NCBI GenBank assembly: GCA_964489445.1
Contig: CAZAYU010000006.1
Location: 53,518 to 117,517 of the forward strand
Direction: 5' to 3'
DNA length: 64,000 nucleotides
From: an uncultured Planctomycetia bacterium
GTDB lineage: Bacteria > Omnitrophota > Gorgyraeia > Duberdicusellales > 4484-171
Of the stretch, positions 23,350 to 62,759 are shown in pieces. A model generated the notes under the pieces. The model made no database searches. It was not told the origin of the DNA and saw nothing but the letters and a program-made list of their open reading frames with translations. Position numbers and translations under genes: made by a program. Within the stretch, counting starts at the first letter, position 1, and every line of letters starts with the position of its first letter.

Positions 23350-23853
23350 TTAAATAAGACAATTACCAAAACCACGCGCTTCACCGTCATAGCGATTCTC
23401 TAGTACTGAAGAATAGTTTTCATTAAAACATCCAATTATCTTAGAATCAATACCGGGACCATCAAAAAATACAGTAAAAAAAGATTCTGGATTTTCCATA
23501 TAAAATATCTCCCGAACCTTATCTATATTCTCAACTGTGTAAATAGTGAATATTTTTTTGGTAAAAAAATAAACCGGAATAAGCGAAAGAGCGCTAAAAA
23601 ATACCGGTAATAACCGTAAAATAAAATCGGATTTCTTCGCAACCACCATCCAATAATGTAAAACAAAAATAAACAACGGCTGGTGGTCAAAAGACCCTAG
23701 ATTGTGGATAATGCCCTTTAAATTTTTCTGGGCAATTTCAATGAATGCCAAATCATACACCCCAAGGCTACCTCTAGTTGCGAAAAACAAACGTAACCCA
23801 AAAGCTAAAGCCATAATACTTGTAAAAATAAGCGCTACTTTGTTATTCCTCAT
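23350..23853 (-). pseudogene. Truncated N-terminal fragment of a GT-C (ArnT/PMT-like) membrane glycosyltransferase; likely gene remnant
   Basis: The first ~100 aa (…YDLAFIEIAQKNL…HQPLFIFVLHYW…) match the N-terminal loop/TM region of ArnT/PMT-family enzymes. The ORF then stops after only 167 aa, with a non-membrane tail, and abuts the next gene. Confidence 0.35.
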
Positions 23854-27793: not shown

Positions 27794-29956
27794 TCAATAA
27801 AAGACTTTTATCTTACCCGAATAATATCGGTATCTTCCTTTAGAAAAAATATTATCATCATCACTAAAACTTTTCCTGTAAATTATTCCTCTTGCCTGGA
27901 GCTGTTTATTAGTATTGTGAATCGCTAGCAAATCACTTGCTACCAATAATTTATCTGGCTCAAAAACGACTGAAGGAAAACCTTTAATGACTCTCATTAA
28001 TCTATTACGCTGGGTCTTCAACTTTCCTTGAGAAAACCTAACTAGCTCTACCCAAGAATCATTAAATTTATTAGACAACTTGGACGTTAAGCCATCAATA
28101 TCCAACAATTGATATTTATCAGACAGCATAAGATTTGTATCATAACGATCAATTTGTATTCTCTGCTCCAAAAACATACTTATTTCAATTATTAAACAAT
28201 GAGGATCGTTTAACTTGACTTTCCAAACCTGACACATCGGAAACCTAGTATATTCCCCTTTGGCAATTATAGTATCATTGACACACCTCACTTTCCATGA
28301 TGCCTGCAGAGAATCAATCCAATGGCCCAAAGAAAAAACAGAGGTATATAAGCCAAAATGTTTGGTTAATTCAACGCCATTATAAAAAATTCTCCCCTTC
28401 CCTTGGTCAAATAAAAACTCTAAAGCTCTTTTTTTTATAGATATCTTCTGCTTTTTATACCCTTCATTTGCTAATATTTTTTGTGTTATTTTTTTATTAA
28501 TATCAGACATTCCTTTGCTGTCTAAATACCCTCCCACTCGATTAGTGTAAAATTTTCTGCCACACTTTTCCCAAAAAATATCCATTCTTCTTAATCGTTC
28601 ACCGTAATTATTTGAAAGATCTTGAGTTTGCCAATCATAAATATTGTTGCTCTGTATATTATACAAGTTAAGATTATTATGAATATACGAATGCGGCTTT
28701 ATTGTAAATACTGATGAATCTAACCCGGAAATATATCTTCTGTTATTTTCAATAAAGTGCAATGTTTTTTCAAAGTCCTTAATCGTCTCGGTTGGAAAAC
28801 CAACAATCCAGTTAGTAAAGACAGCAATGCCGGAAGAATACGCATCTACAATATTTTGACGCGCAGCATCAACTGTAAATGGCTTTTTCATGCTGCGCAG
28901 AACATCATTTGATGCGCTTTCAATTCCAAAATTAAGATACTCACAGCCTGATTGTCGCATTTGCTCAAAAAGCTTTCGATTCATGTCCAGTCTTACAGAA
29001 ATACTCGCCCCCCATCTTGTAATTATATTATTTTTAATGATCAGTTTACACATTCTAAGTAAGGAATCTAAATCTGCATTGATTAACTCATCGTTAAAAT
29101 GAAAAAACTCAACCTGGTAATTATTTCGCTGCACATTCATCTCCTCAACGACAGATTCTGGACTTCTCTTACGAAAGACATAGTTAAAAAAATAAGGATC
29201 ATTACAAAATGCACAATGGTTAATGCACCCTCTACTTGTTAAAATCGGCAAAAATTTCAAATCAGTATAAGCGTTTAAGGAATAACCAGAAAAGTCCGGA
29301 TAAGGCAATTTATCTATATTCTTGCTCAAAGGGCGCACTTTATTGATTAGCAATGAATAGCCCTCTTTAGCGATTATCCCCTCGCATCCTTTTAAACTTT
29401 TTCCACTATTTACCCTTTCGACAATTTCCGGAAAGACATCCTCCCCTTCTCCCACAACGACAATGTCAATAATTCTCATAATATTCTTAATTCTCACGCC
29501 AGGGTTTATTGCACCATCAAAGATATTTACATTTTCAATAATAAATGGTCCGCCAAAAATTATTTTGGCGTTTTTACTAAACTCTTTAATTTTTTTTGCT
29601 AAAAGAACACTTACATTGACCGATGTGTTATACACTGTAAACCCTATTAAATCAGGAGTAGTATTCAAAATACTTTTAGCCCAGAGATCTAGTACCTTTC
29701 CACCCAAAAAATTAATATTTCTGATAGTACGTTCATCTTCCCATTCATGCTCAAGAGTATTCTGTGTCCAGAATGATTCAGACTTATAATCCCAATTTCT
29801 TTTTTCAATATCATTCACCTTATTGTAAAGGCTGATATTAAAATCAAACTGAAGCACATTATTTCCACGCTTTTCTAAGACTGATTTTAAGTAAGCCGGA
29901 CCTATTTGCGGCATCCGAGGATTAAACATTGGACATTGTATAAGGGCGATATTCAT
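27794..29956 (-). CDS. Cobalamin-binding (class B) radical SAM protein with C-terminal ~200-aa domain homologous to the Wzt C-terminal repeats
   Basis: MNIALIQCP B12-domain start, …FGGPFII…, and ILTSRGCINHCAFCND. The C-terminal GKGRIFYNGVELTKHFGLYTSVFSLGHWIDS…IDRYDTNLMLSDKYQ aligns to each repeat in ORF 54112..56841. The track start is GTG at 29974; ATG with a GGAG RBS is at 29956. Confidence 0.75.
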   Translation of the reverse strand: MNIALIQCPMFNPRMPQIGPAYLKSVLEKRGNNVLQFDFNISLYNKVNDIEKRNWDYKSESFWTQNTLEHEWEDERTIRNINFLGGKVLDLWAKSILNTTPDLIGFTVYNTSVNVSVLLAKKIKEFSKNAKIIFGGPFIIENVNIFDGAINPGVRIKNIMRIIDIVVVGEGEDVFPEIVERVNSGKSLKGCEGIIAKEGYSLLINKVRPLSKNIDKLPYPDFSGYSLNAYTDLKFLPILTSRGCINHCAFCNDPYFFNYVFRKRSPESVVEEMNVQRNNYQVEFFHFNDELINADLDSLLRMCKLIIKNNIITRWGASISVRLDMNRKLFEQMRQSGCEYLNFGIESASNDVLRSMKKPFTVDAARQNIVDAYSSGIAVFTNWIVGFPTETIKDFEKTLHFIENNRRYISGLDSSVFTIKPHSYIHNNLNLYNIQSNNIYDWQTQDLSNNYGERLRRMDIFWEKCGRKFYTNRVGGYLDSKGMSDINKKITQKILANEGYKKQKISIKKRALEFLFDQGKGRIFYNGVELTKHFGLYTSVFSLGHWIDSLQASWKVRCVNDTIIAKGEYTRFPMCQVWKVKLNDPHCLIIEISMFLEQRIQIDRYDTNLMLSDKYQLLDIDGLTSKLSNKFNDSWVELVRFSQGKLKTQRNRLMRVIKGFPSVVFEPDKLLVASDLLAIHNTNKQLQARGIIYRKSFSDDDNIFSKGRYRYYSGKIKVFY

Positions 29957-31647
29957 TGATGTCTCCGCTTCCACTCTTCGGCAAAATTAATATTTTCCGG
30001 CCGAACGAGCCTTGAGAATTCATAATATATAACAAACCCTTGGGCAGTTATTCTCTTTTTATGCCTGATATCATGCTCACTTAAATACTCATCCATTATA
30101 TCAATATGCCCAAACTTATGATTACCAGTAAATACATAAGCATACCTATTAGCTCTATCTACAGCCTGTTCATAATAATCATATCTCTCGCCAAAGTGGC
30201 AATCATCATATATTACATCCCCAGTACTTGAACAACTCCAAATGCCCCTGCACGATGCAATGATTTTCTCCTTGCTTTCAAAAACTAGCGGCCACTTAGC
30301 ATCATAATACGTATAGACGTAATGAATATCTTTTTCCAGTAACTCACTAATAAGCTGCCTTAGCCCCGACATCGACCAACGATCACCATTAATGTAGAAA
30401 TTTATATTTCCAAATAAACTAATTAAAATAATGCTTACAGCTAAAACAACTGAAATGATCTTACCTAGAAAATTAAACTCAAAGAGCTTTATTATAAACA
30501 AGGAAATAAAAATATAAAAAAAAGGATACAAAACCATTGCATAATGATCCCTCCACACATAATCACTACTATACTGGCTGAAAGAATAAAGAAGCGAATA
30601 GAACAGAGGAAAAACAAGTAACAACGATTCCGGATTAATTTTTTCGGGAATAACATTGTGCTTGGTTGAAGGTATGACTCCTTTTATGACATTCTTTAAA
30701 GATTCTCTATTCAACCAAATAAGAAAACAAACGGAAATAACCACCACGAAATAATATAAATAATTAATAAATGATGCGTTAAAGAAAGGAATTAATTCAA
30801 AGTTAAACGAATCAGGAATGCGATAAAAAAATAAATCCTTAATACGGATAAATCTCTCAGCAATATAAGAAGAAGTAAATAAGAACTTATCAACTTCCAG
30901 CCCCATCAACGGACTACTGTATCCACTGAAAATAGCATACAATAAAGGACTAATTCCAACAGTAAAAGATACAACAAAAATAAGAAACTGAACCCGCAAA
31001 AAAAATAACTTGTCAAAAAGATACCAATAAAACATGATAACCAAAACAAAAATAAATGCAGAAACATGATACGCAATAGCTAAGCCGGATAACACGCCTA
31101 AAATTATCCAATAGCCATACCTATCTAATGGTAGCGCCTTGCGCTTTGAATTAAAAAAAATGCTAAAAAAAACAAAAAATATTAAAATATCAAAAAACAA
31201 TATATCATGATGATTAGCCACACAGTATAAGCTATAGCGAAAATACGAAGGAATAGAAAAAATATACAGTAGACTAGTTAGTAGTGCAACCTTTCGACTA
31301 AAAAATTTATTTGTAAATGTAAATAAAATAACCAGTATTCCTATACTAAATATTAACGGAACCAGTCTCAAGGAAATTGTGGAAACACCAAACAATAAAA
31401 ATAGGGGAACCGCCATAAACGAGGACACCACGGAGCCCAACCCATAAAGATGAATATATGAAAGGTGTGCCTGCGTATTATTTCCTTCTAATATATGTTT
31501 TGCTAAAATCCCTCTTACTCCTTCCTCAGACATAACTACATTACAAGCAGAATATAAAACCAATAAACGTAATCCTACCAATGTTATTATCAACAAACTA
31601 ATAACAAAAAACTTATTCTTCAATATACCTAATTTCATTTTTACCAA
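29953..31647 (-). CDS. Polytopic membrane protein, probable GT-C fold glycosyltransferase (ArnT/PMT_2-like) with C-terminal soluble domain
   Basis: About 11 predicted TM segments. N-terminal loop motif SEEGVRGILAKHIL resembles the DE(x)R…IA…M loop of ArnT/PMT enzymes. The ATGA overlap with the upstream gene implies translational coupling. Confidence 0.45.
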   Translation of the reverse strand: MVKMKLGILKNKFFVISLLIITLVGLRLLVLYSACNVVMSEEGVRGILAKHILEGNNTQAHLSYIHLYGLGSVVSSFMAVPLFLLFGVSTISLRLVPLIFSIGILVILFTFTNKFFSRKVALLTSLLYIFSIPSYFRYSLYCVANHHDILFFDILIFFVFFSIFFNSKRKALPLDRYGYWIILGVLSGLAIAYHVSAFIFVLVIMFYWYLFDKLFFLRVQFLIFVVSFTVGISPLLYAIFSGYSSPLMGLEVDKFLFTSSYIAERFIRIKDLFFYRIPDSFNFELIPFFNASFINYLYYFVVVISVCFLIWLNRESLKNVIKGVIPSTKHNVIPEKINPESLLLVFPLFYSLLYSFSQYSSDYVWRDHYAMVLYPFFYIFISLFIIKLFEFNFLGKIISVVLAVSIILISLFGNINFYINGDRWSMSGLRQLISELLEKDIHYVYTYYDAKWPLVFESKEKIIASCRGIWSCSSTGDVIYDDCHFGERYDYYEQAVDRANRYAYVFTGNHKFGHIDIMDEYLSEHDIRHKKRITAQGFVIYYEFSRLVRPENINFAEEWKRRHQ

Positions 31648-44866: not shown

Positions 44867-44899
44867 AACAAATAATGTTTATCAACAAAACAAGCCATC

Positions 44900-46984: not shown

Positions 46985-47000
46985 CTAACATCATGTCTAA

Positions 47001-49001
47001 TTAATAGTTATCTGGATTAATATGCAACCCCTGCAAACACGGTTCTTTACAATTTTTTATTCTCTCTAGTTCTTTTTGATAATCGCTTGAGTTAAAAACA
47101 TCTTTGAACCTCAATTTATATAATGGCATATTTATTTCTGTTCCACACAAATACGGCTTACCTTCAAAAGTAATATTTAATGATTCAAATCCGGTTAAGC
47201 AACGATTTGATTTTTTAAGCTTATTATCAAAATAGTCAATATATCGTTCAACAACCGAAACCGGACGAGCACTTATATCAGGGTTATTCTTTACATACTC
47301 AATAATATCCTTCAACTTATTTTTTTCCAACTCTGTTATCAAAAAATTCCCTTTAACATGGCATAGTTCATTGTTTGGAATAACTGGCTGGATGTCAACC
47401 CTTACCCCCTTATACTGTTTAAGCAACATTAAAAATGCAATATAATGCATGAAATTCTCCGGCATCAATATCGAACTTACTGTTAAAAAATTAATCCTCT
47501 GCAATTTATAATAATTATGATAAATTGCTTTAAAATTAAAAAACGACTTTTGAAAAGCGCCACTTCCACGAATAAAATCATGAGTATATTCCAGCCCATC
47601 GATTGAAAAAATTATTCCTATTTTCTTTAATTCTTCTTTTGAAAAATTATTCAAAAATTCCTCATTAAATAGAATCCCATTAGATATAATATTGACTGTA
47701 GCAATATCTGTTGCGCAAACAAATTTAATTATTTCCGGTAAATCTTTACGTAACAGCGGCTCTCCCCCACCAAATGTGATTCTTTCAATATTGCAATCAT
47801 TATTTAAATTAAGAATCAGCCTCTTCCACTCTTCCTTAGTAATTTCATCTTGGATATCAAATTTACCCTTACCAGTAGTGCACATAATGCATTTAAGATT
47901 ACAGCGATTAGTAATCGCAATATAAAACTCTGTGATATTGAACTCCTTTCTATCCATTATTACTTTCTTGCTGCTACTTTCTTCGTCTAAGCAACGTTTT
48001 AGCTCTTGATTAATTGCTTTAATTGGACTACAACAGCTATCCCAGCAAAGAGTGCTATCGTAATAGTGCTTATATTGTTCGATTAGTTTATAGTAAATAT
48101 CACCTAAGTCCTCATCGTAAACATTAAATGGTGTTTTTTGAGGATCACCGTTACACTTTAATACTTGCCCCTGACAATCAATTAAAATTTTATATAAGTA
48201 GAAAAAACATTTATTTTTTGCAATACTTGATATTTCCGAATTAATTTTTTGGATATCAGCGCAAGATTCATTGTCTAACCATTCTGCTCGGTTAAAATTA
48301 ACAGGAGTATCCATATTTTTTAATCTATATTTAAAATCTATTATCTGTTTGTCTGCAGGCAATAGCTCATTAAACTTTTGTGTCATTTTGACTAATTTGA
48401 TTAAAGTTACATTCTTTATTCTATAAAGCTCTGATTTTAAAAAATAATTTTCCACGTTATCATAGTTAATATTTGTCACTACCATATTAAGATTTAAATT
48501 AAGAGTTGGATTATTTTTAACGGTAAATTCTAAGAACCCTATTATTCTCTGTAAATAATCATCACCACCACAAGCCGGTTTTAATTTATACTGAATAGCT
48601 GGAACAAATGAATCTAAAGATATAGTCACTACATCCCAACCTATTTTTTTTATAAATTGCGCAAATTCTAAATCAAGTTTGCTACCGTTAGTCAATAAAG
48701 TACCAATGAGTTTTCTCTTTTTAATCTCTTCCATTAAAAATTTAATATCCTCGACTATTGTTGGTTCGCCAATTAAAGATGTTAACGAAATTTCCTGAGT
48801 TCCCATCTTTTTTGCAGCATTAAGAATTTTTATTAAAACATCTCTGGATAAATATTTATGCTCATTATGTTTTACACTTCCGGAGCAATACAAACAATTT
48901 AGATTACAAAAATTATTAATAACTAAATCAATGCAATAAGGTCCTTTTTCCACGCCTTTCAACCTTTTCTTAAACCAAGAATAAAACTCTTTTGAAATCA
49001 T
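47001..49001 (-). CDS. Double radical SAM protein (two tandem rSAM/SPASM modules)
   Basis: Module 1 has VINNFCNLNCLYCSGS. Module 2 has IAITNRCNLKCIMCTT and FGGGEPLLRKD, with C-terminal CKEPCLQG. Confidence 0.75.
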   Translation of the reverse strand: MISKEFYSWFKKRLKGVEKGPYCIDLVINNFCNLNCLYCSGSVKHNEHKYLSRDVLIKILNAAKKMGTQEISLTSLIGEPTIVEDIKFLMEEIKKRKLIGTLLTNGSKLDLEFAQFIKKIGWDVVTISLDSFVPAIQYKLKPACGGDDYLQRIIGFLEFTVKNNPTLNLNLNMVVTNINYDNVENYFLKSELYRIKNVTLIKLVKMTQKFNELLPADKQIIDFKYRLKNMDTPVNFNRAEWLDNESCADIQKINSEISSIAKNKCFFYLYKILIDCQGQVLKCNGDPQKTPFNVYDEDLGDIYYKLIEQYKHYYDSTLCWDSCCSPIKAINQELKRCLDEESSSKKVIMDRKEFNITEFYIAITNRCNLKCIMCTTGKGKFDIQDEITKEEWKRLILNLNNDCNIERITFGGGEPLLRKDLPEIIKFVCATDIATVNIISNGILFNEEFLNNFSKEELKKIGIIFSIDGLEYTHDFIRGSGAFQKSFFNFKAIYHNYYKLQRINFLTVSSILMPENFMHYIAFLMLLKQYKGVRVDIQPVIPNNELCHVKGNFLITELEKNKLKDIIEYVKNNPDISARPVSVVERYIDYFDNKLKKSNRCLTGFESLNITFEGKPYLCGTEINMPLYKLRFKDVFNSSDYQKELERIKNCKEPCLQGLHINPDNY

Positions 49002-49095
49002 TGATTAAATATTGAAAATATCAGATTTAAGGTAAATTTATAAATACAATAATAAGTTACAACAGCCACTCAATCACCAACAAAACCTTTATCAA

Positions 49096-52071
49096 TCAAT
49101 TACAAAGCACTTTAATTGCTTCCCTGATTCTTTCCTTTTGGCTATGCGCCTTTGAAGGAGAAAAAAAAGCATATCCGTCAGCTTTTGTTAAATAATTTAA
49201 AAGCAACCGTAAGTCATTGATTAAATATTGTTTTCCGCCACCAAGGCAATTGATTTTCAAATTATTGCTAGATCTTAATAATACTTCCATATTTTCGATT
49301 ATCAGAGAATAACTATTATTCATTAATTCCTGTAACGGTAACATCGGATACAATGATACATATTTTTCTAAGAAACGTAATTCTTGAAATATCAAAAATA
49401 AATTTCTTTTGCTACACAGCCGGCTGTGTATCTCTTCTGCCGAATCGGAAGACGGCCGTATAGAACAAAATTGAACACAATTATTTCGACAGTTTCTTAT
49501 TGTGTTTCTGAAATGTTCGGCATCTTTTGAAAACCATACAGTATCCCAAGAATCCTTGTCACCCTCTCCAAAATGCTGTAATTTTCTATCATTTGGCCCA
49601 TTACACACAAAGCATAATTTCTTTCCCACAAGTATTGCACGAGTAAAGCCAGCATAACATTTATCTACATATACAGCTTTTGAAAAATAAGTATATATTT
49701 TTTCACAAGGAATTTCTACATGTATTGGCATCCGTTTCTTTTTTTCTTCAATCTTTCTTAAAGCATCATCTAAATCCGGAAGTCGCTGTTCAGGTATCCA
49801 AAATTCGCTGCTTCTCATTCCTTTTAAGTCAGTATTGCACACGTAAGGTTGGACACAAATGCCACAAAGATCATACTCAAGACAAAAGTCTAGCATATCA
49901 TACATAGTATCAAGCGTTTGGTTCATTAAAATAGATAGAGTATTTACCCGCGGAAAAATCTTTTTTCTCCTTTTTTTCTCTACATTAATATAATTAATCG
50001 CTTCTATTGCTTGTTCAAAAACTCCTTCACCCCGCAATGAATTATGAATATCAGCATTTGGTGAATCTATAGAAATACCTAAGGTATCAAGCTCTACGTC
50101 TATCAATCTATCTATAATCTTTCTGCTTAAAATTGTTCCGTTAGTGTTAAGATGGACTATTATTCCAGGATAATAATCTTTTACATATTTTACAAGATTA
50201 AATATGTCTGGCCGCATTAATGCTTCTCCGCCAGTAAAATATACTTGCTTGAGATTACCTAGCTTATACACATCATCAATGCTCTTTTTAACATAAAACA
50301 TATCTAGTTCATCTTCGTTAGCATTCCAAACTCCGCACATTTTACAACGCAAATTACATTTTGTAGTAAGCAACAATTGATACATAAACGGCCCCACTAA
50401 AGGTTTATTTAGATAAAGCGAAAAATTATACAGATAATCTTCCTGAATATTTTTAAGAAAATCTAATTGTCCCTTGTCATCTTCTATTGAATAATTAAAG
50501 ATATTTACATCTTCCTCTAACATCAAACAACCTTTTGCCGAATCAATCTTGCTATCAATAATTTTGTCCTTTACTCCGTTATCGTTAGCATCTTTAGCTT
50601 TTATATAATAGGCTAAGGCTTGCTTGTGCTCATTATTCTCAATGCGCTTATCTCCTAGAAATAGATAATATTCAGATGGAGAGTAAAAACTATCTTCTTC
50701 CCGGCCAATATAATTATTGCAAAATTCTAGAATCTCTATTCTCTTTTGTAATGTATTCTCCCCATCTCTAGAGTGCCATCGCACAGAATTAAAATTATCT
50801 TCAAGCTCAATGCCAAAATCTCTTCTATTTTCATAGATATACGTTCCTTTAGCTATTACTAATAAATGAAAAAGAACCTTACCAATAAATCGTCTGTTAC
50901 GCTTAATAAATTCTGCTGTAAGGATAATATCCACATCTTCTTCTCCGGGAAGCCCTATTATCAACGTAACATCTGCTGTTATTCCTGCTGTATGAGTATT
51001 CTGTAGCACCAACTCTACCAATTCAGGCGTAAAACGTTTACCAATAGTCTTTAATGTTTTCGGGCTTAAACTTTCTAATCCGTAAGTAATGTGTGAGCAA
51101 CCTGCCATTTTCATTTTACTTAATAGATCTAAATTCATTTCTTCTCGTATACTAGCCTGCCCTCCCCAGTTAAGCTTTATTTTACTATCAACCAAACGAT
51201 CACAAAGACCATTCAATACTTTTAAATCTCCATTAATAAGAGAATCATTTAAAAATAGTGAACTAATACAAGGATGCTTATTGATTTGGTACATAATTTC
51301 ATCAAATATATTTCCTGCACTCCGTGTCCTGTATTTTTTCCAGTTTCTTGACTCACTGCAGAATATACATTTATTAATGCAGCCTCTACTAGTTGATATT
51401 GCTAACTTATGACTGTGAAACTCATCTAAATGATATTTATCAAAATTAAAATCAGAATAATCAGCAAAAGGCAATTCATCTAAATTCTCTATTAATTCTT
51501 CTTCCGGACAGCTTATGATATCATTGTTAATGTCTCGAAAAGCTATTCCATTTAAACCGCTAACCTTACCACATCTTTCTACTATAGCTACTATCTGAGG
51601 AAGAACTTTTTCTCCTTCAAGATAACAAATAGCATCTACAAACTGATTAGTATGTAATAAAGATGCCCCCATCTCAGACTTAGTACAATGCGGTCCGCCA
51701 AAAATAATAATTTTATCGCTATTCTCCTCTTTAACCCTCCGAGCTATTTCTTCAGAAAAAAGACGATTTAATCCCGTAATGGTAAACCCGATTGTTTTAT
51801 AACCAATACTAATAATTGACTTTACACATTCTTCTATAAACTCCCCGTATAAATTGATTATTTTTTTAACAAAATCATCATTATACCAATCTGTGGGCCT
51901 ATCATATAAGGAGTTTTTCCTCAGCCCAACTAAATAATTATAAAATTCAATATTAAAATCTAAGCATTTTACCTTATAGCCTTCTGCCTGGCATGCTGCC
52001 TTAAGCAAGGCTAGACTATAGGGTGGTGAATGTATCGACCAACAAGGAGCTTGAACAATGACCAGGCTCAT
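49096..52071 (-). CDS. Fusion protein: cobalamin-binding (class B) radical SAM + family-B SPASM radical SAM + ~120-aa C-terminal tail
   Basis: MSLVIVQAPCW, …FGGPHCTKSE…, STSRGCINKCIFCSE. The second module has LLTTKCNLRCKMCGV and FTGGEALMRPD, with CRNNCVQFC. Confidence 0.75.
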   Translation of the reverse strand: MSLVIVQAPCWSIHSPPYSLALLKAACQAEGYKVKCLDFNIEFYNYLVGLRKNSLYDRPTDWYNDDFVKKIINLYGEFIEECVKSIISIGYKTIGFTITGLNRLFSEEIARRVKEENSDKIIIFGGPHCTKSEMGASLLHTNQFVDAICYLEGEKVLPQIVAIVERCGKVSGLNGIAFRDINNDIISCPEEELIENLDELPFADYSDFNFDKYHLDEFHSHKLAISTSRGCINKCIFCSESRNWKKYRTRSAGNIFDEIMYQINKHPCISSLFLNDSLINGDLKVLNGLCDRLVDSKIKLNWGGQASIREEMNLDLLSKMKMAGCSHITYGLESLSPKTLKTIGKRFTPELVELVLQNTHTAGITADVTLIIGLPGEEDVDIILTAEFIKRNRRFIGKVLFHLLVIAKGTYIYENRRDFGIELEDNFNSVRWHSRDGENTLQKRIEILEFCNNYIGREEDSFYSPSEYYLFLGDKRIENNEHKQALAYYIKAKDANDNGVKDKIIDSKIDSAKGCLMLEEDVNIFNYSIEDDKGQLDFLKNIQEDYLYNFSLYLNKPLVGPFMYQLLLTTKCNLRCKMCGVWNANEDELDMFYVKKSIDDVYKLGNLKQVYFTGGEALMRPDIFNLVKYVKDYYPGIIVHLNTNGTILSRKIIDRLIDVELDTLGISIDSPNADIHNSLRGEGVFEQAIEAINYINVEKKRRKKIFPRVNTLSILMNQTLDTMYDMLDFCLEYDLCGICVQPYVCNTDLKGMRSSEFWIPEQRLPDLDDALRKIEEKKKRMPIHVEIPCEKIYTYFSKAVYVDKCYAGFTRAILVGKKLCFVCNGPNDRKLQHFGEGDKDSWDTVWFSKDAEHFRNTIRNCRNNCVQFCSIRPSSDSAEEIHSRLCSKRNLFLIFQELRFLEKYVSLYPMLPLQELMNNSYSLIIENMEVLLRSSNNLKINCLGGGKQYLINDLRLLLNYLTKADGYAFFSPSKAHSQKERIREAIKVLCN

Positions 52072-52201
52072 AATCCTTTCTTATTATTACTCAATAAATA
52101 AAAATTCATTTATCTGTTATCAAAAGGAAACTAACTAAATTCAATAGCTTTTTTAACATTTTTAAAAAATAACCCATGCAAAGCAACGCAAGGAATATTA
52201 G

Positions 52202-53203
52202 TTATACATCGTCACAGAAGCATGGTAACAAACATGGCCATGCGCATCTTTTTACCTGATTTCTTGCCTGAATTATTTCCTTGCTCATAAGGACATCTTT
52301 TAATAACGTGTTTTTTAAACTTCCATACACAGAAAAACACGTTCGACATTTTCCATCATTAGCCACCAGAATTGTTCTGTCCGCAGACAAACATTTAGCA
52401 TTTTCCGGCAATAATCTGTTGCAGTAATAGTCTCTCATTAACAACAAGTTGGTAATTGAATTCTTTATAAAATCCGGTTTTTCTTTTTTTAACTCTATCA
52501 GTTTACTTAAGGAATCATCCAGTATATTTAGCCGATCTTTAAGAACCCAAAATTCAGATTTCTTTCGTTCATTCATCCTTAGATTATTGGGAAGCAGCGC
52601 TTGAAATTGTAATGAATCTGCACCTAAAGATTCAACAAAAGCAGCAATGTCCGCTAATTCTTCTAAATTATGATTCAAAATTATAGTAATTACGTTAAAT
52701 TTTACCTGCGAATTACTTTTCTTCAAGCAAGAAAGAACACCAAGCCCTTCTACTGTTTTCTTCCAAGCATTATCATAGTTGCGGATATAATTATGGGTAT
52801 CTGCTTTTAATGAGTCTAAAGAAAAGACCAACGAAATAGTATTATCCAGGATATAGGGCTCTAATCTGTTAATATTTTCCGCAATCATTATCCCATTTGT
52901 CAAAACACCTAAATTTTTAATATTTATATTTCTTGCGTAATCAAATATTTCATATATATCTTTTCTTATTAGTGGCTCACCTCCAGAAAGAGCAATTTCA
53001 TTTATCCCCAGTTTTTTAGCTTGATCAAGCACCCGCTGGACATGATAAATATCTATATCTTTTTCGGAAATACCAGTTTTCCATATATCACAAATACGAC
53101 ACTTTAGATTGCAGGAATGTGTAATATCTAAGATGATAAGCCGAGGCAGATAAAGATTATTAACTTTGTTTAACATTGCCAGACTGAATTCGGAAATATT
53201 CAT
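52202..53203 (-). CDS. Radical SAM/SPASM protein (family B)
   Basis: DITHSCNLKCRICDI followed by LSGGEPLIRKD, with C-terminal CAWPCLLPC. The track start (53242) is TTG and overlaps the upstream GT2; ATG (MNISEF) is at 53203. Confidence 0.7.
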   Translation of the reverse strand: MNISEFSLAMLNKVNNLYLPRLIILDITHSCNLKCRICDIWKTGISEKDIDIYHVQRVLDQAKKLGINEIALSGGEPLIRKDIYEIFDYARNINIKNLGVLTNGIMIAENINRLEPYILDNTISLVFSLDSLKADTHNYIRNYDNAWKKTVEGLGVLSCLKKSNSQVKFNVITIILNHNLEELADIAAFVESLGADSLQFQALLPNNLRMNERKKSEFWVLKDRLNILDDSLSKLIELKKEKPDFIKNSITNLLLMRDYYCNRLLPENAKCLSADRTILVANDGKCRTCFSVYGSLKNTLLKDVLMSKEIIQARNQVKRCAWPCLLPCFCDDV

Positions 53204-54107
53204 GAATATTTCCAAAAATATAAAAAATTTTATGAAGAGCAAAATAAATATAAACAGTTATTCGTCGAGCCCCTGTCCCCTTACTCTGATGTTTAAGAAA
53301 TTGTTTACCTAATATACAGCTAAATCGTGGAATTTTAATAAGATTGCCTAATGTCGATAGCCAAAAAGAACTTCTTCCTATTTTTAGTTCTTTTAATAAA
53401 ACATGACTATTGTTTTTATATTTTGTTAATAGGTTACCTCTTCCGTAAATATAAGCTTGTTCAAGAAAGCTTATGAATGTATCCTCGCGATAATGAATAA
53501 CTCTTATTTTTTTATCCCAGATAAATCTATGGCCATCCTTGAACAGACGCCAAAAAAAATCTAAATCTTCGCCTCCCGGCAAAGGAAAATCTTTATCAAA
53601 TTTATATTTCTCAAAAATTTCTCTCTTAAGAGAAACATTGCAAGTAGGAAAAAATATTATTTCTTCTTTGCCATCAATATTGGTATTAATACTACACGTA
53701 CTTAAGAATTGACTAACCAATACAGCAATCTTAGGCGATCGAGAATAAGTACCTCCACCTACAGCCGAGACATCGGGGTTATCCTTATGTATTTTAACCA
53801 TCAATTCCACCCAATTTTTCTCAGCAACACAATCATCATCAGTGAATAAAACTATTTTTCCTTGGGCAGCTTCTACTCCTAAATTTCTTGCTACAGCTGG
53901 ACCCCTAGAAAGTTGAGAAACATAAACTAAATTACCAAAGTTAAATTTTATTTGAAAAATTAACTTCTTTATCTCTTTATTTGCTCGATCATCAACAACT
54001 ATAACCTCAAACTTATTTAGAGGATAGTTCTGCTTAGCTAAAGAACTCAAGCAATCAATTAATTTTTTCTTTCTGCCACACGTAGGTACTACTACCGAAA
54101 CTTCCAT
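53160..54107 (-). CDS. Glycosyltransferase family 2
   Basis: VVVPTCGRKKKLIDCL…VIVVDD…LFTDDDC GT-A motifs. Confidence 0.75.
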   Translation of the reverse strand: MEVSVVVPTCGRKKKLIDCLSSLAKQNYPLNKFEVIVVDDRANKEIKKLIFQIKFNFGNLVYVSQLSRGPAVARNLGVEAAQGKIVLFTDDDCVAEKNWVELMVKIHKDNPDVSAVGGGTYSRSPKIAVLVSQFLSTCSINTNIDGKEEIIFFPTCNVSLKREIFEKYKFDKDFPLPGGEDLDFFWRLFKDGHRFIWDKKIRVIHYREDTFISFLEQAYIYGRGNLLTKYKNNSHVLLKELKIGRSSFWLSTLGNLIKIPRFSCILGKQFLKHQSKGTGARRITVYIYFALHKIFYIFGNIHEYFRIQSGNVKQS

Positions 54108-54111
54108 TTTT

Positions 54112-56841
54112 TTACTCTCCGTTAACCATTATTTCACCTTTTGAATATATATACTCTCCAGGCATTAAACTAATCGGAACATCATCTAAATATTGTAAAA
54201 CTCTACCACGAAAATTAAGATCTGTGTTTACTATGTTAAGCTTGTCCTGCTGACTTCTAAAAAAGGGGGTAAATATTATTTCGGGAAAATAACTTTCCTT
54301 TTTTCTAATCCTCTTTACCCCAGCATAGAACTTATTATCCTCCGACAAACAACATGAAGAAATAACTCCCCAATCATCGTCAACATTTCCATCAAAAAGA
54401 GGAAATGTCCCTTCATTTTTATTGAATGCCCATTGTTTATATTCTTCAGAAAGCATAATATTTGTCTGCTGGCGATCAATTCCAATTTCTTTATTAACTC
54501 TCATTTTAATTGAAAACGCAATAACACCCTCCCGTACTAATCTTAAATTCCAATATTGTTCTATTGGCAAATGCATCCATCTGCCAATAGAATTAATTTC
54601 GGAATCATTACCCTGAACACTCCATACAGCATGCGTACAAGAATCGTACCATCTGCCTTGCGACCGCAAAGAGGTATAAAAACCAAGCTGCTTTGTTAAT
54701 TTTTTATCATTCCAAAATATTTCTCCTCTCCCATTTGTTAAATTATACTTTAATTTTTTTTTCGCCACCATCCAAGAATCATTGGTAGTATTTTGTTGTT
54801 TAGCGTCATATTTTAAGGAAATTCTTACCTCAAAACACCTATGCCTACCTTGCGCAAACTTTCTTTTATCCTCCGGTTCAACACTTTGGATAGACAATAC
54901 TCTTGTCCGGCAAGACATAGCTGAATTAAAAATTTTAGCAAAATTATGCGGTTTTTTAGAGAAATCTAATAAAATATCCGGCAAATGTTTATCTAAACTA
55001 GACAAAATAATACTTTCATCGGGAATACATCTTTGCAACATATCCTCTTCGCGCTCTGAAAAAATATCCGAAAATGCACCCTTACCATACTTACTAAAAT
55101 AATATTTGTATCTTTCTGATAACTCAATCCTGATAAACTTTTCCTCAATCTCTAATTCATCTTTTATCTCGATATCTAAAGTAAAAATAAAATAATCTTC
55201 ACTAATAATTTCTATTTCCCAGATACAAATAACAGGTAAATACGCACTCTCACACCTGGCAATTATTTTTTTATTGCCTTCTTTTTTTATCTCCCAGAAA
55301 CTAGATTCAAAATTATACACCCGGCCTGCACAACGTAAAAAAAAGCTTACACAATTACCTTTGACTAAAGATAAATCATTAAAGAACGGAATGACTTTCC
55401 CATTATTAAATGTTAACCTTAACCTCTCTTGTGATATTGTTGTTTCGTCTTGAATATTCTTAAGATAAGCAGGCACATCTTTGATTCCAATAATGATTTT
55501 TCCGCTAAAAAATGTTAACCGTTTCCCTTTATTTTTAGAATAATTTTGTACATTCGCTATTTGAAATTGCAAAATTCGCGAGGAAATGAAACAATCTGAA
55601 TTTAATATTTGCCCATAGACAGGTAAAGCAGATAATGATTGTTCAACAATAAAAGAAGGCATACTCTCAGCAAGGCTATTCTCGGTTATTACTCCGATAC
55701 ATCTTCTAGAAATATTATCTTCCAATAAAGGCATCCATTGGTTATTACCTTCAATTATGGAGGGAAAATTATCTTTTTCGCCTAGAGAAGTAAACCATTG
55801 CTGATATTTATCAACTAAAATAAAATCAACACATCCCTGTTCAATTTCCATCATTTGTTCACTCTCAATCCCAATATCTATCTTTATCTCGCCGGAATCC
55901 ATCAATTCTATTTTCCAAACAACAATAAGCTCTATTTGATATATCCGCCCCTTAGCTGTAATCCGCTTATCACTTTCTTCTTCAATCTCCCAGTAGGCTT
56001 GAAAAGAATTGTACCGTTTATCTCGCGTAAAGAAATTAATATGTATTCCGGAAGAATTAGTAATAGGCTGATCGGCCCAATTAATAAATAAGCGGCCATT
56101 ATTAAATACAATACTTAAATTATCTTTTTTTAGGATCCCGACACCCTCCTTTGCCCCGACTACTTGTGTATAAAGAGCGATGGTCTTTTTCACCTCAGAA
56201 TCCTTAATGAGCCTACCCTCTTTAAGCAAAATAGCTCTCTTGCAAAGCCTCTGCAGCATCCCCATTTCATGGGTAACGTAAACAATTGTTGCACCTTTTT
56301 CTCTGATTTCAAATATTTTCTTTATGCATTTTTTTTGAAAAGACTCATCTCCCACCGCTAAAGTATCATCGATTAATAATATTTCCGGATCCAGACAAAT
56401 AGCAATCGAAAACGCCAAACGGACAAACATTCCTTGAGAGTAATACTTAACCGGAGCATTAATAAATTTCCCAATTGCGGCAAAATTTTCAATATCTTCG
56501 TATTTCTGATCAATTTCCTGTCGTGTAAATCCAAAAAAAGTGCTGTTTAAGAAAATATTATCTTTTCCGCTTAATTCCTGCTGAAAACCAGCTCCCAAAT
56601 CTAAAAGCCCGGTTACTCTCCCAGAAACACTCACCTCGCCTCGATCAGGGACGAGTATTCCGGCAATTAACTTTAAAATAGTAGATTTTCCTGCCCCGTT
56701 TTCTCCGATTATTCCCAGACTTTGCCCCTTCTCAACATCAAATGTTATATCCTTTAATGCCCAAAAATTATCCCAAGAAAGTTTACCATCAATAATAAAC
56801 TTTATTCGAAATATTTCCCAAACATCTTTAAACGTGATCAT
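54112..56841 (-). CDS. wzt: ABC transporter ATP-binding protein, Wzt/TagH-like, with ~650-aa C-terminal extension built from three tandem ~200-aa domains
   Basis: Walker A GENGAGKST, signature YSQGMF, Walker B ILLIDD, H-loop THE. Three repeats follow (…FNNGRLFINW…, …FNNGKVIPFF…, …GRGEIFWNDKKL…). Confidence 0.75.
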   Translation of the reverse strand: MITFKDVWEIFRIKFIIDGKLSWDNFWALKDITFDVEKGQSLGIIGENGAGKSTILKLIAGILVPDRGEVSVSGRVTGLLDLGAGFQQELSGKDNIFLNSTFFGFTRQEIDQKYEDIENFAAIGKFINAPVKYYSQGMFVRLAFSIAICLDPEILLIDDTLAVGDESFQKKCIKKIFEIREKGATIVYVTHEMGMLQRLCKRAILLKEGRLIKDSEVKKTIALYTQVVGAKEGVGILKKDNLSIVFNNGRLFINWADQPITNSSGIHINFFTRDKRYNSFQAYWEIEEESDKRITAKGRIYQIELIVVWKIELMDSGEIKIDIGIESEQMMEIEQGCVDFILVDKYQQWFTSLGEKDNFPSIIEGNNQWMPLLEDNISRRCIGVITENSLAESMPSFIVEQSLSALPVYGQILNSDCFISSRILQFQIANVQNYSKNKGKRLTFFSGKIIIGIKDVPAYLKNIQDETTISQERLRLTFNNGKVIPFFNDLSLVKGNCVSFFLRCAGRVYNFESSFWEIKKEGNKKIIARCESAYLPVICIWEIEIISEDYFIFTLDIEIKDELEIEEKFIRIELSERYKYYFSKYGKGAFSDIFSEREEDMLQRCIPDESIILSSLDKHLPDILLDFSKKPHNFAKIFNSAMSCRTRVLSIQSVEPEDKRKFAQGRHRCFEVRISLKYDAKQQNTTNDSWMVAKKKLKYNLTNGRGEIFWNDKKLTKQLGFYTSLRSQGRWYDSCTHAVWSVQGNDSEINSIGRWMHLPIEQYWNLRLVREGVIAFSIKMRVNKEIGIDRQQTNIMLSEEYKQWAFNKNEGTFPLFDGNVDDDWGVISSCCLSEDNKFYAGVKRIRKKESYFPEIIFTPFFRSQQDKLNIVNTDLNFRGRVLQYLDDVPISLMPGEYIYSKGEIMVNGE

Positions 56842-56847
56842 ACTATT

Positions 56848-57642
56848 TTACAATTTTTTAAATAATTCCTTCTCAAAATACGAAAAAACTTTAAATCCAA
56901 GAATTAAACTGACAATAGCCCACAAGAATGTACCTGCAAATATAGAAATGCTAGGCAAATTTCCATTAAAAATAACATCACGATAATATTGAATATAGCA
57001 ACTCATAGGATTTATACTTATTACCCACCTAAGCTGTTCGGGAAGCATCTCCGAAGAATAGAATATCGGAGTTATCCAGAACCAAAGCATAAGCATAACC
57101 CCTAGAAAATGTGTTATGTCACGATAAACTACATTAAGAACAGAAAGCATAAGCGAAATACCGCAAATAAACAAAAAATGCAAAAATAAAACGATAAACA
57201 AAAAAGGGACCAAACTAATTATTTTAAAATTAAAAAATAAAAATACAAAATATAGTGTGCAAAACCCAGCAATAAATTCCAAAAAATTTGCCAGAACAAC
57301 AGATATCGGAAATATTTCTTTAGGTATATTGAACTGTTGCAAAAGCCCTCGCTGATTTATAATCGACCCTGCAGCATCAAACAGAGAACTAGAAAAAAAC
57401 ATCCAAGGGATAATACCAGCAAGAACGAAAAGAGGAAAATTTTTGATTTCCGCCTTAAAAATAAAAGTGAACACAAAAGTTATTACAAGCATTAATAATA
57501 AAGGATTAACTACTGCCCAAAATACCCCTAAAAAGGCATTCGAATATTTTGCCTTCACCCTAGAAAAGGCAATTTTCCATAAATTGCCACGATAAGAATA
57601 TATTTTAGTTATTCTTTCCCTTAACATAATACTAAAACGCAT
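56848..57642 (-). CDS. wzm: ABC-2 type transporter permease (Wzm-like)
   Basis: 264 aa, six hydrophobic segments. It sits immediately upstream of the Wzt-like ATPase, separated by 6 nt. Confidence 0.7.
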   Translation of the reverse strand: MRFSIMLRERITKIYSYRGNLWKIAFSRVKAKYSNAFLGVFWAVVNPLLLMLVITFVFTFIFKAEIKNFPLFVLAGIIPWMFFSSSLFDAAGSIINQRGLLQQFNIPKEIFPISVVLANFLEFIAGFCTLYFVFLFFNFKIISLVPFLFIVLFLHFLFICGISLMLSVLNVVYRDITHFLGVMLMLWFWITPIFYSSEMLPEQLRWVISINPMSCYIQYYRDVIFNGNLPSISIFAGTFLWAIVSLILGFKVFSYFEKELFKKL

Positions 57643-62279: not shown

Positions 62280-62759
62280 AACATTGAAATGTCCCAATCA
62301 CTTGGATAATCACTTGTTTCCAAGGATGGACTATCAATTCAATTGTACCATCTTTAATACTGTTGATAGAATAAATAAATTGTTTCTCTCTGTATACTTT
62401 TTTAGAATGAAAGCAACAAATAAAGTCCGGATGTATCAAATTAGATAATTCTACTAATTTTTATTTATCTGTGACCAACCAATAACCCTCTTGAAATAAT
62501 TAAAAGCTTTACACATTACACTCTTTGGCCAAAACATAAACTTATTAGCATATCGAATCCTCTTTATACCAAAACGCTTAGCAAGCCTTATTAATACATC
62601 TAATATCAAAGTTAGCTGGTGAAGATGCTTTTCCGTATCTAAATGTGTTATAGTTATCCCTCTATCCGATACCTTTTTAATCTGTGCATATCCCTCTTTA
62701 TAGAGATCATCCGCATTTATGATAAGTTTGTCATTATTAATTCTTGATTTTATAACACC
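62280..62759 (-). pseudogene. Decayed YdjC-family deacetylase paralogue (internal deletion + in-frame stop, no start codon)
   Basis: Minus-strand translation gives DKLIINADDLYKEG fused directly to ITHLDTEKHLHQLTLILDVL…KRIRY (compare intact ORF 36006..36890: LIISADDFGLTEG … VTHLDTEKHLHIFPSILKVI…NRIRF). A stop follows near 62455, and after it a further region …IELIVHPW… matches the YdjC C-terminus. Confidence 0.45.

What the first reader, a model, noticed from the sequence alone, without database searches (positions are those of the whole stretch)
54112..56841. Wzt-like ABC ATPase with a triplicated ~200-aa C-terminal domain (909 aa total)
Typical Wzt/TagH C-terminal extensions carry a single carbohydrate-binding domain. 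Here three tandem copies are recognisable. The first and second begin with (L)(S/R)(I/L)(V/T)FNNG, the third with GRGEIFWNDKKL…, and each spans ~200 aa with shared (W/F)EI…I.A.G…P…W.IE… cores. Three tandem recognition domains could increase avidity for a capped polymer terminus or recognise several different caps. Such an arrangement would match a glycan with many rSAM-installed modifications.
Basis: seen in the sequence. Interest (0 to 1): 0.6.

Follow-up and report, generated by a model that had tools for sequence, protein, structure and literature searches.

The report
Glycan exporter ATPase with triple sugar-binding-like domains
This is the ATPase subunit of a Wzm/Wzt-type polysaccharide exporter from an uncultured Omnitrophota bacterium; instead of the usual single sugar-recognition domain it carries three ancient copies of a previously unannotated beta-sandwich domain, which is also attached to radical-SAM tailoring enzymes of the same gene cluster.

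Summary

The repeats are not Wzt carbohydrate-binding domains:
- No unit hits Pfam Wzt_C, although conventional Wzt controls do.
- hhalign probability against the Wzt_C family is below 1%.
- The AlphaFold model (pLDDT 92) is a large beta-supersandwich of the galactose-mutarotase / YidC-P1 / OpgG type, not a jelly-roll.

The domain has no Pfam or NCBIfam model. It has 648 cluster representatives. It forms arrays of 1 to at least 5 copies on Wzt ATPases (3 is commonest). It is also fused to B12-radical-SAM, radical-SAM/SPASM and GT-C enzymes, including ORF 27794-29974 in this window. Some proteins join NBD, repeats and radical-SAM enzymes in one chain.

The gene order Wzm, Wzt-array, GT2, radical-SAM run is conserved in Omnitrophota. 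The catalytic Walker-B Glu is Asp throughout the close family.

Best reading: a substrate-recognition array that couples radical-SAM tailoring of a glycan to its export. Ligand binding is inferred, not shown. I rate it a new variant of a known kind, interest about 0.7.

The parts
54112..56841 (-). Complete ORF, 909 aa: Wzt-type ABC ATPase plus three tandem beta-supersandwich domains (stop codon 54112-54114).
56134..56841 (-). Nucleotide-binding domain, aa 1-236, Wzt/TagH type. It includes the C-terminal hinge-helix region (about aa 217-235).
   Evidence: Pfam ABC_tran aa 29-161. NCBIfam TagH/Wzt aa 12-228. A. aeolicus Wzt 8DKU/7K2T, E 5e-67, aligned over aa 12-235. Foldseek NBD-only hits have RMSD 3-3.5 A and TMt 0.80-0.86.
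56683..56706 (-). Walker A motif GENGAGKS (aa 46-53).
56365..56379 (-). Walker B motif LLIDD (aa 155-159). Asp159 replaces the canonical catalytic Glu.
   Evidence: Asp in 67 of 67 scorable close homologs, Glu in 26 of 26 scorable conventional Wzt. D158 and D159 are invariant in alignment A2.
55438..56124 (-). Repeat R1 (aa 240-468), the NBD-proximal type. It ends in a short helix (aa 456-465).
   Evidence: HMM E 7e-74. AF2 model pLDDT 92.1, pTM 0.90. Supersandwich fold.
54742..55428 (-). Repeat R2 (aa 472-700), the middle type.
   Evidence: HMM E 2.4e-70. hhalign against R1, E 1e-41.
54115..54741 (-). Repeat R3 (aa 701-909), the terminal type. This is also the type appended to the cluster's B12-radical-SAM enzyme.
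   Evidence: HMM E 5.5e-70. Unit typing.
56848..57642 (-). Wzm-type ABC-2 permease (264 aa), the presumed membrane partner. Its stop lies 6 nt upstream of the Wzt start.
   Evidence: PF01061, E 1.7e-13. The adjacency is conserved in all homolog loci examined.
53160..54107 (-). GT2 glycosyltransferase (315 aa) immediately downstream. In three sampled homolog loci it is fused to a radical-SAM domain.
52202..53242 (-). Radical-SAM protein overlapping the 3' end of the GT2 gene. It is the first of a run of radical-SAM/SPASM genes (43718-53242).
27794..29974 (-). B12-binding radical-SAM enzyme (726 aa) carrying one R3-type copy of the same domain at its C-terminus (aa 516-726; window 27797-28429).
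   Evidence: HMM E 6e-39. Pfam B12-binding plus Radical_SAM. R3 type scores 130 bits against 89 and 85.

Best explanation
The gene encodes the ATPase subunit (Wzt) of a Wzm/Wzt-type ABC exporter for a lipid-linked, heavily tailored polysaccharide of an Omnitrophota bacterium.

The canonical jelly-roll cap-binding domain has been replaced. Starting at the same place, just after the NBD hinge helix, there are three paralogous beta-supersandwich domains of a family that Pfam and NCBIfam do not model. The three positions diverged long ago and are conserved separately: R1 next to the NBD, R2 in the middle, R3 at the end.

I propose that the array is the exporter's substrate-recognition and tethering module. 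It would bind the nascent glycan, or particular modification states of it, on the cytoplasmic face. The same domain on the tailoring enzymes (B12-radical-SAM, radical-SAM/SPASM, GT-C) would target them to the same polymer. Tailoring and export would thereby be coupled, by analogy with cap recognition by the Wzt CBD. The conserved Walker-B Glu-to-Asp change may slow ATP turnover, which would suit a substrate-gated cycle.

Shown: gene identity, the repeats, the fold class, the family distribution, the fusions and the synteny. Inferred: ligand binding, the coupling to tailoring and the kinetic effect.
For: Wzt identity. Adjacent Wzm and GT2/GT4/aminotransferase context.

The repeats are real and ancient. 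Same-position units are 39-44% identical across proteins, while different-position units are 22-26% identical whether or not they are in the same protein.

Fold. The confident model (pLDDT 92, pTM 0.90) matches carbohydrate-handling supersandwich domains: GH36/GH129 N-domains, OpgG/OpgD, GH63 YgjK, glycoside phosphorylases, LacZ domain 5, GalM and YidC P1. Foldseek probability is 1.0 and TM-score (query-normalised) up to 0.65.

Family. There are 648 representatives at E<=1e-3, and arrays of 1 to at least 5 copies sit on Wzt NBDs. The arrays have a positional grammar: 75 of 81 NBD-linked arrays start with an R1-type unit, and 119 of 146 arrays end with an R3-type unit (tallied).

The same domain sits on enzymes that act on the polymer. 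In this window it is on the B12-radical-SAM ORF 27794-29974. Elsewhere it is on GT-C/PMT_2 glycosyltransferases and on radical-SAM/SPASM enzymes. Single-chain fusions exist: NBD + 2 repeats + radical-SAM/SPASM (P0180), NBD + 5 repeats + radical-SAM/SPASM (P0098), and NBD + 2 repeats + B12-radical-SAM + repeat + radical-SAM/SPASM (L007, 1915 aa).

The order Wzm, Wzt-array, GT2(-radical SAM), radical-SAM run is conserved down to 32% identity.

The family-wide conserved residues are mostly aromatic and polar (T, G, S, W, Q, W, Y, W, F, P, N, R) with no universal acidic residue or His. That pattern suits binding better than catalysis.
Against: No ligand-binding data exist, and the coordinates could not be inspected, so I could not test whether the conserved residues form a surface site.

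The fold class also includes members with non-carbohydrate or unknown ligands (YidC P1) and catalytic members (OpgD/OpgG, GalM).

Sequence identity to every structural match is only 7-13%.

The full-length model has pTM 0.59, so the geometry of the array is not defined.

Sharing a domain with enzymes is equally compatible with protein-protein docking.

The periplasmic location of the domain in the GT-C fusions, which would favour glycan binding, is inferred from general GT-C architecture. My crude hydropathy count was inconclusive.
Confidence: 0.6

Rival explanations
1. Docking scaffold. The repeats are protein-protein interaction modules. R3-type domains on tailoring enzymes would pair with domains of the Wzt array, by analogy with the way Wzt CBDs dimerise. 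This would assemble radical-SAM enzymes and the exporter into one complex without the domains touching the glycan.
For: The same domain type is on Wzt and on radical-SAM enzymes of the same cluster. Natural single-chain fusions of NBD, repeats and radical-SAM enzymes exist. The array has a conserved positional grammar. The canonical CBD is itself a dimerisation module (PMC9445017).
Against: The domain also follows GT-C/PMT_2 membrane glycosyltransferases. In characterised GT-C enzymes the C-terminal soluble domain is extracytoplasmic (established knowledge, not tested here). That would place the domain on the side of the membrane away from the NBD. Most of the closest folds are sugar-handling domains.
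Confidence: 0.2
2. Spacer or molecular ruler. The array mainly acts as a rigid arm of tunable length (1 to at least 5 units). It would position a terminal recognition unit or fused enzymes at a set distance from the membrane, influencing chain length or access, like the WbdD coiled-coil ruler.
For: Copy number varies widely while the first and last unit types are kept and expansion happens in the middle. Inter-domain linkers are short and their pLDDT does not collapse at the domain boundaries.
Against: Middle units keep the same conserved aromatic and polar signature as the terminal ones, which a pure spacer would not need. pTM 0.59 does not support a rigid rod.
Confidence: 0.1
3. Catalytic domains. 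The supersandwich units are enzymes acting on the polymer, for example GH186-like glucanase/transglycosylase or mutarotase/epimerase-like activity, rather than binding modules.
For: Structural neighbours include catalytic supersandwich domains: OpgG/OpgD and GalM.
Against: No acidic residue or His is conserved at 75% or more across 377 units. Three to five tandem copies of one enzyme on an ATPase would be unusual. Sequence identity to the catalytic relatives is only 6-11%.
Confidence: 0.07

Closest known systems
WzmWzt O-antigen ABC transporter with a C-terminal carbohydrate-binding domain (A. aeolicus, E. coli O9a, R. terrigena; Pfam Wzt_C PF14524)
   Same: The NBD is the closest sequence and structure match. 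An ABC-2 Wzm partner gene is adjacent. The extra module begins right after the hinge helix, where the CBD sits (PMC9445017). The gene lies in a glycan-biosynthesis cluster. The likely logic is the same: recognise the finished or modified polymer before export.
   Different: The extension is three ~225-aa supersandwich domains instead of one ~150-aa jelly-roll. There is no sequence or profile similarity to Wzt_C. No Wzt CBD appears among the top 50 fold matches. Walker B has Asp in place of the catalytic Glu. The domain is shared with, and sometimes fused to, radical-SAM and GT-C enzymes.
Galactose-mutarotase-like beta-supersandwich domains (N-domains of GH31/36/63/97/129 enzymes and glycoside phosphorylases, LacZ domain 5, OpgG/OpgD, GalM, YidC P1)
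   Same: Overall fold: Foldseek probability 1.0, E down to 2e-5, TM-score (query-normalised) 0.55-0.65. It is all-beta with about 17 strands. Most members contact carbohydrates.
   Different: Identity is 7-13%, and no Pfam, NCBIfam or PDB sequence match exists. The domain occurs as cytoplasmic tandem arrays on an ABC ATPase, an architecture none of those proteins has.
TagH/TarH wall-teichoic-acid exporter ATPases
   Same: Related NBD (NCBIfam E 1e-48 to 1e-54; PDB 7DD0 and 6JBH, E 1e-50 to 1e-53), paired with an ABC-2 permease.
   Different: More distant than Wzt. The TagH C-terminal extensions are unrelated to this array.
WbdD-type terminator / chain-length regulator working with Wzt (E. coli O9a)
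   Same: The concept is shared: tailoring of the polymer is read by the exporter, and an elongated module may set geometry.
   Different: No homology was tested or claimed.

Membership tests
Wzt/TagH-type polysaccharide ABC exporter ATPase | ABC NBD with Walker A, Q-loop, YSxGM signature, Walker B and H-loop | tested here: met
   GENGAGKS at aa 46, GAGF at 83, YSQGM at 134, LLIDD at 155, VTH at 189. Pfam ABC_tran, E 4e-19. One deviation: the catalytic Glu is Asp.
Wzt/TagH-type polysaccharide ABC exporter ATPase | Closest relatives are Wzt/TagH NBDs rather than other ABC classes | tested here: met
   NCBIfam top hits are TagH and galactan Wzt, E 1e-48 to 8e-54, all below the equivalog cut-offs. 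PDB: A. aeolicus Wzt, E 5e-67. Foldseek top hits are 7K2T and 8DKU.
Wzt/TagH-type polysaccharide ABC exporter ATPase | Adjacent ABC-2 (Wzm/TagG) permease gene within a glycan-synthesis cluster | tested here: met
   PF01061 ORF at 56848-57642, with flanking GT4, GT2 and DegT genes. The arrangement is conserved in homolog loci.
Wzt/TagH-type polysaccharide ABC exporter ATPase | ATP-driven export of an undecaprenyl-linked polymer | not testable with these tools
   Requires biochemistry.
Wzt C-terminal carbohydrate-binding domain (Pfam PF14524) | Sequence match to the Wzt_C profile | tested here: not met
   0 of 45 repeat units hit at E<=1 and the full protein has no hit. Positive control: 7 of 7 conventional Wzt hit PF14524 at E 2e-5 to 2e-27, and 5 of 7 are above the 30.4-bit cut-off. 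hhalign probability is 0.1-0.8%.
Wzt C-terminal carbohydrate-binding domain (Pfam PF14524) | Single jelly-roll domain of about 150 aa | tested here: not met
   Each unit is about 215-230 aa with about 17 strands. The best PDB matches are supersandwich proteins, with no Wzt CBD in the top 50. The full-length alignment to 7K2T extends past the NBD only at RMSD 11-16 A, as it does for MalK and CysA.
Wzt C-terminal carbohydrate-binding domain (Pfam PF14524) | Located directly after the NBD hinge helix | tested here: met
   The alignment to A. aeolicus Wzt runs to query aa 235, and R1 starts at aa 240.
Wzt C-terminal carbohydrate-binding domain (Pfam PF14524) | Dimer formed by exchange of C-terminal strands; binds the polymer's terminal cap | not testable with these tools
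   Feature taken from PMC9445017. It needs a multimer model or an experiment.
Galactose-mutarotase-like beta-supersandwich fold | Fold-level structural similarity | tested here: met
   Foldseek against PDB: 28 hits at E<=1e-3, probability 1.0, TM-score (query-normalised) 0.55-0.65 to 9AYU, 3BS6, 5WZN and 9E08. The query model has pLDDT 92.
Galactose-mutarotase-like beta-supersandwich fold | Detectable sequence homology to a described member family | tested here: not met
   No Pfam, NCBIfam or PDB sequence hit. Identity in the structural alignments is 7-13%.
Galactose-mutarotase-like beta-supersandwich fold | Carbohydrate binding or catalysis in the sheet cleft | not testable with these tools
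   Only a conserved aromatic/polar signature is available. Model coordinates could not be inspected.

The most novel reading that the evidence does not exclude
The array is a multi-checkpoint reader within an integrated tailoring-and-export machine. Each paralogous unit (R1, R2, R3) would recognise a different radical-SAM-installed modification state of the polymer. The same domain would tether the radical-SAM and GT-C enzymes to the chain. The slow Asp-for-Glu ATPase would fire only when all checkpoints are satisfied. This would be a previously undescribed pathway for radical-SAM-tailored polysaccharides, with an exporter physically fused to its tailoring enzymes in some lineages.
Probability: 0.25. 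Interest if true: 0.85.

Novelty: new variant of a known kind. Interest (0 to 1): 0.7.

Why it matters
ABC-transporter-dependent glycan export has one known way of checking the substrate: a single jelly-roll CBD that reads a terminal cap. This locus shows a second, unrelated solution: modular arrays of a supersandwich domain, from 1 copy to at least 5.

The same module is reused on the enzymes that decorate the polymer. In some genomes the exporter ATPase, the modules and radical-SAM enzymes are a single polypeptide. That gives a concrete, testable handle on three questions:
- How tailoring is coupled to export.
- What the very large radical-SAM gene sets in Omnitrophota surface-glycan clusters do (15 radical-SAM proteins in this 64-kb window).
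- Whether a presumably homodimeric ABC transporter can work with Asp at both catalytic-base positions.

It also defines a domain family of at least 648 clusters that Pfam and NCBIfam lack.

Tried and rejected
- BLASTP self-comparison gave only the identity hit. I replaced it with Smith-Waterman plus shuffles and with hhalign.
The single-protein scan reached only close relatives, so the taxonomic breadth of the domain outside Omnitrophota is not established.
- A crude hydropathy count of TM helices in the GT-C fusions gave overlapping, ambiguous segments. It cannot settle which side of the membrane the domain faces there.
- The full-length model searched against PDB aligned into the A. aeolicus CBD region, but at RMSD 11-16 A, just as for MalK and CysA regulatory domains. 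I treat this as uninformative about R1/CBD equivalence.
- P0162 looked like a one-copy form but is a partial sequence; a 913-aa member sits in its cluster.
- The weak PDB profile hit to TFIIH Tfb4 (E 0.3) and the Pfam Cas9_RuvC hit (E 0.09) were rejected as chance.
- Six literature searches found no description of this domain, of tandem arrays on Wzt, or of radical-SAM-linked Wzm/Wzt clusters.
- I considered a recent duplication or an assembly artefact for the repeats and rejected both. Paralog units are only 22-26% identical, and the three-unit architecture is conserved in at least 68 homologs.
Full report
**1. The observation**

ORF 54112-56841 on the minus strand encodes 909 aa. Every ORF of 90 aa or more that I called in the 64-kb window is on the minus strand.

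Pfam sees only an ABC_tran domain at aa 29-161. NCBIfam places the N-terminal ~230 aa closest to TagH and galactan-Wzt ATPases, with E 1e-48 to 8e-54, all below the equivalog cut-offs.

The C-terminal 670 aa form three tandem units.
- Profiles built from 68 homologs align with hhalign E 1e-37 to 1e-41 over about 200 columns.
- A unit HMM delimits the domains at aa 240-468, 472-700 and 695-909.

The triplication is therefore real.

It is also ancient. Units in the same position in different proteins are 39-44% identical. Units in different positions are 22-26% identical, whether or not they lie in the same protein. At the DNA level only faint 27-31-nt matches remain, at a spacing of 696 nt.

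**2. What the repeat is not**

No Pfam family matches any of 45 repeat units at E<=1. NCBIfam has nothing for the region. A profile search of PDB sequences finds nothing meaningful.

As a positive control I took conventional Wzt proteins from other phyla, recovered through their NBDs, which are 45-52% identical to this one. All seven that I tested hit Wzt_C (PF14524) at E 2e-5 to 2e-27, and five of the seven exceed the curated cut-off. A profile of 18 such C-terminal domains compared with the repeat profile gives an hhalign probability of 0.1-0.8%.

According to PMC9445017, canonical CBDs are single jelly-roll domains that dimerise by exchanging C-terminal strands and bind the polymer cap on a concave sheet.

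**3. What the repeat is**

An AlphaFold2 model of R1, built on a 45-sequence unit alignment, is confident (pLDDT 92.1, pTM 0.90). It is all-beta with about 17 strands and one C-terminal helix.

Foldseek against PDB returns 28 hits at E<=1e-3, all with probability of about 1.0. All 28 are beta-supersandwich (galactose-mutarotase-like) domains, apart from one family of PBCV-1 capsid proteins. They include:
- the N-domains of a GH36 galactosaminidase (9AYU, TM-score 0.65) and of GH129 NagBb;
- the YidC periplasmic P1 domain (TM-score 0.60-0.63);
- OpgG, OpgD and MdoD;
- GH63 YgjK, kojibiose and beta-1,2-oligoglucan phosphorylases (laminaribiose phosphorylase lies just outside this cut-off, E 3e-3), GH97 and LacZ domain 5. 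GalM also matches, just outside this cut-off (rank 45, E 4e-3).

No Wzt CBD chain is in the top 50.

The full-length model (pLDDT 86, pTM 0.59) folds all four domains confidently but leaves their arrangement only moderately defined. Searched against PDB, it hits A. aeolicus WzmWzt first. The fit is good only over the NBD: NBD-only entries give RMSD 3-3.5 A and TMt 0.80-0.86, while full-length entries give RMSD 11-16 A. MalK and CysA behave the same way.

By sequence the closest solved NBD is A. aeolicus Wzt (E 5e-67), aligned through the hinge-helix region to aa 235. R1, which starts at aa 240, therefore begins where a CBD normally does.

**4. The family**

A word-index search with the C-terminal 672 aa found 70 other clusters. 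Of these, 67 are 893-917 aa long, cover 96-100% of the query and are 32-44% identical. Every one that carries an organism name is from Candidatus Omnitrophota. P0071 (687 aa) is a natural two-unit form.

An exhaustive HMM search of 1.84 billion representatives with the unit profile found 648 proteins at E<=1e-3, of which 313 are at E<=1e-30.

Among the 147 newly returned proteins, the NBD-linked arrays (NBD detected by a Walker A pattern) carry the following numbers of full units:

| Full units | Proteins |
|---|---|
| 1 | 3 |
| 2 | 20 |
| 3 | 41 |
| 4 | 11 |
| 5 | 5 |

Larger proteins reach 1856 and 2244 aa, with up to 8 matched stretches. One apparent single-copy protein, P0162, is a partial sequence. 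P0204 (465 aa, on a 41-kb contig) looks like a genuine one-unit form.

Typing each unit against the R1, R2 and R3 profiles reveals a grammar. Of 81 NBD-linked arrays, 75 begin with an R1-type unit. Of 146 arrays, 119 end with an R3-type unit. Expansion happens in between (tallied).

**5. The same domain on tailoring enzymes**

In this window, ORF 27794-29974 (726 aa) is a B12-binding radical-SAM enzyme with one R3-type unit at aa 516-726 (E 6e-39).

Elsewhere the domain follows GT-C/PMT_2 membrane glycosyltransferases (P0088, P0135, P0165, P0182, P0210, P0164) and radical-SAM/SPASM enzymes (P0126, P0144, P0189).

Single-chain fusions join everything:
- NBD + 2 units + radical-SAM/SPASM (P0180);
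- NBD + 5 units + radical-SAM/SPASM (P0098);
- in a reference Omnitrophota MAG, NBD + 2 units + B12-radical-SAM + unit + radical-SAM/SPASM (L007, 1915 aa).

**6. Context**

The gene sits between a Wzm ABC-2 permease (56848-57642) and a GT2 (53160-54107). A run of radical-SAM genes follows, several of them double radical-SAM fusions. Upstream are a GT4, a DegT aminotransferase, an LPG_synthase_TM protein and another GT2. Further downstream are GDSL esterases, a carbamoyltransferase, YdjC, AsnB, a PMT_2-like protein and more radical-SAM genes. In total 15 ORFs carry 19 radical-SAM domains.

The order Wzm, Wzt-array, GT2, radical-SAM/SPASM run recurs in the loci of P0067 (32% identical), P0047 and the two-unit P0071. 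In those three loci the GT2 is fused to a radical-SAM domain. The window's own gene was found on 9 metagenome contigs.

**7. Mechanism**

What is shown: this is a Wzt-type ATPase with a Wzm partner in a glycan cluster. Its C-terminal module is a conserved, ordered array of a new domain family with a fold typical of carbohydrate-handling proteins. That domain is shared with, and sometimes fused to, the enzymes that tailor the product.

What I infer: the array binds the polymer on the cytoplasmic side and couples its radical-SAM/GT tailoring to export, in the way the CBD couples capping to export.

Two points favour polymer binding over pure protein docking.
- If the unit on GT-C enzymes is extracytoplasmic, as the C-terminal domains of characterised GT-C enzymes are, then the only partner common to both sides of the membrane is the polymer. 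This is established knowledge about the family and was not tested here.
- The residues conserved across 377 units are aromatic and polar, with no universal acidic residue or His.

The rivals are a docking scaffold, a spacer or ruler, and catalysis. They remain open and are not mutually exclusive.

**8. A further feature of the NBD**

Walker B reads LLIDD, so the catalytic Glu is Asp. This holds in 67 of 67 scorable close homologs and in most other array-bearing Wzt proteins (50 Asp, 18 Glu and 12 unscored by the pattern). In contrast, 26 of 26 scorable conventional Wzt proteins have Glu. D158 and D159 are invariant in alignment A2.

In heterodimeric ABC exporters this exchange marks the degenerate, slowly hydrolysing site (PMC7756269). 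Here a presumably homodimeric Wzt would carry it at both sites. The consequence is unknown. A slow, substrate-gated cycle is my speculation.

**9. Novelty and verdict**

Six literature searches found no description of this domain, of tandem arrays on Wzt, or of radical-SAM-linked Wzm/Wzt clusters.

The system is a Wzm/Wzt exporter, which is a known kind, with a new recognition architecture and a new domain family. I therefore rate it a new variant of a known kind, interest about 0.7.

Noticed in passing
window 56365-56379 (-), aa 155-159 of the Wzt: Walker B is LLIDD: the catalytic Glu is replaced by Asp. The change is conserved in 67 of 67 scorable close homologs and in most array-bearing Wzt proteins, and absent from 26 of 26 scorable conventional Wzt proteins. 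In a homodimeric NBD both ATP sites would carry the 'degenerate-site' residue.
   Followed up: partly
window 27794-29974 (-): A B12-binding radical-SAM enzyme (726 aa) carries one R3-type copy of the Wzt repeat domain at its C-terminus (aa 516-726). It overlaps by about 20 nt the end of a weak PMT_2/GT-C-like ORF (29953-31647).
   Followed up: yes
window 977-53242 (-), whole window: There are 15 radical-SAM ORFs carrying 19 radical-SAM domains in one co-directional 64-kb cluster. They include four double radical-SAM fusions (4711-7491, 44900-46984, 47001-49001, 49096-52071) and five proteins with B12-binding domains. All are below the NCBIfam equivalog cut-offs, so their chemistry is unknown.
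   Followed up: partly
window 40168-41403 and 41458-42696 (-): Two tandem GDSL-lipase/TPR genes are 99% identical (397 of 399 aa). This is either a very recent tandem duplication or an assembly collapse or expansion artefact.
   Followed up: partly
window 52202-54107 (-): The GT2 gene (53160-54107) and the following radical-SAM ORF (52202-53242) overlap by 83 nt as listed. In homolog loci (P0047, P0067, P0071) the two are one fused GT2-radical-SAM protein of 627-648 aa. The 315-aa GT2 is called on three independent metagenome contigs carrying this gene.
   Followed up: partly
window 977-2215 and 2241-3473 (-): Adjacent radical-SAM paralogs (412 and 410 aa) are 44% identical. Both end in a Cys-rich CQGGCFGYR tail.
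   Followed up: no
L007:9944-15688 (+), Omnitrophota MAG JAFGGP010000013: A 1915-aa single ORF combines a Wzt NBD, 2 repeat units, a B12-radical-SAM module, another repeat unit and a radical-SAM/SPASM module. It is a Rosetta-stone fusion of exporter and tailoring enzymes.
   Followed up: yes
window 62737-63987 (-), 38614-39636 (-) and 23350-23853 (-): These ORFs (416, 340 and 167 aa) have no Pfam match at E<=1e-3, although they lie inside the glycan cluster.
   Followed up: no
fold search of R1, ranks 2, 4, 6, 13, 15: Several minor capsid proteins of the giant virus PBCV-1 (8H2I chains cG, cs, cA, cB, cE) match the repeat model about as well as the glycosidase N-domains do (TM-score 0.47-0.59).
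   Followed up: no
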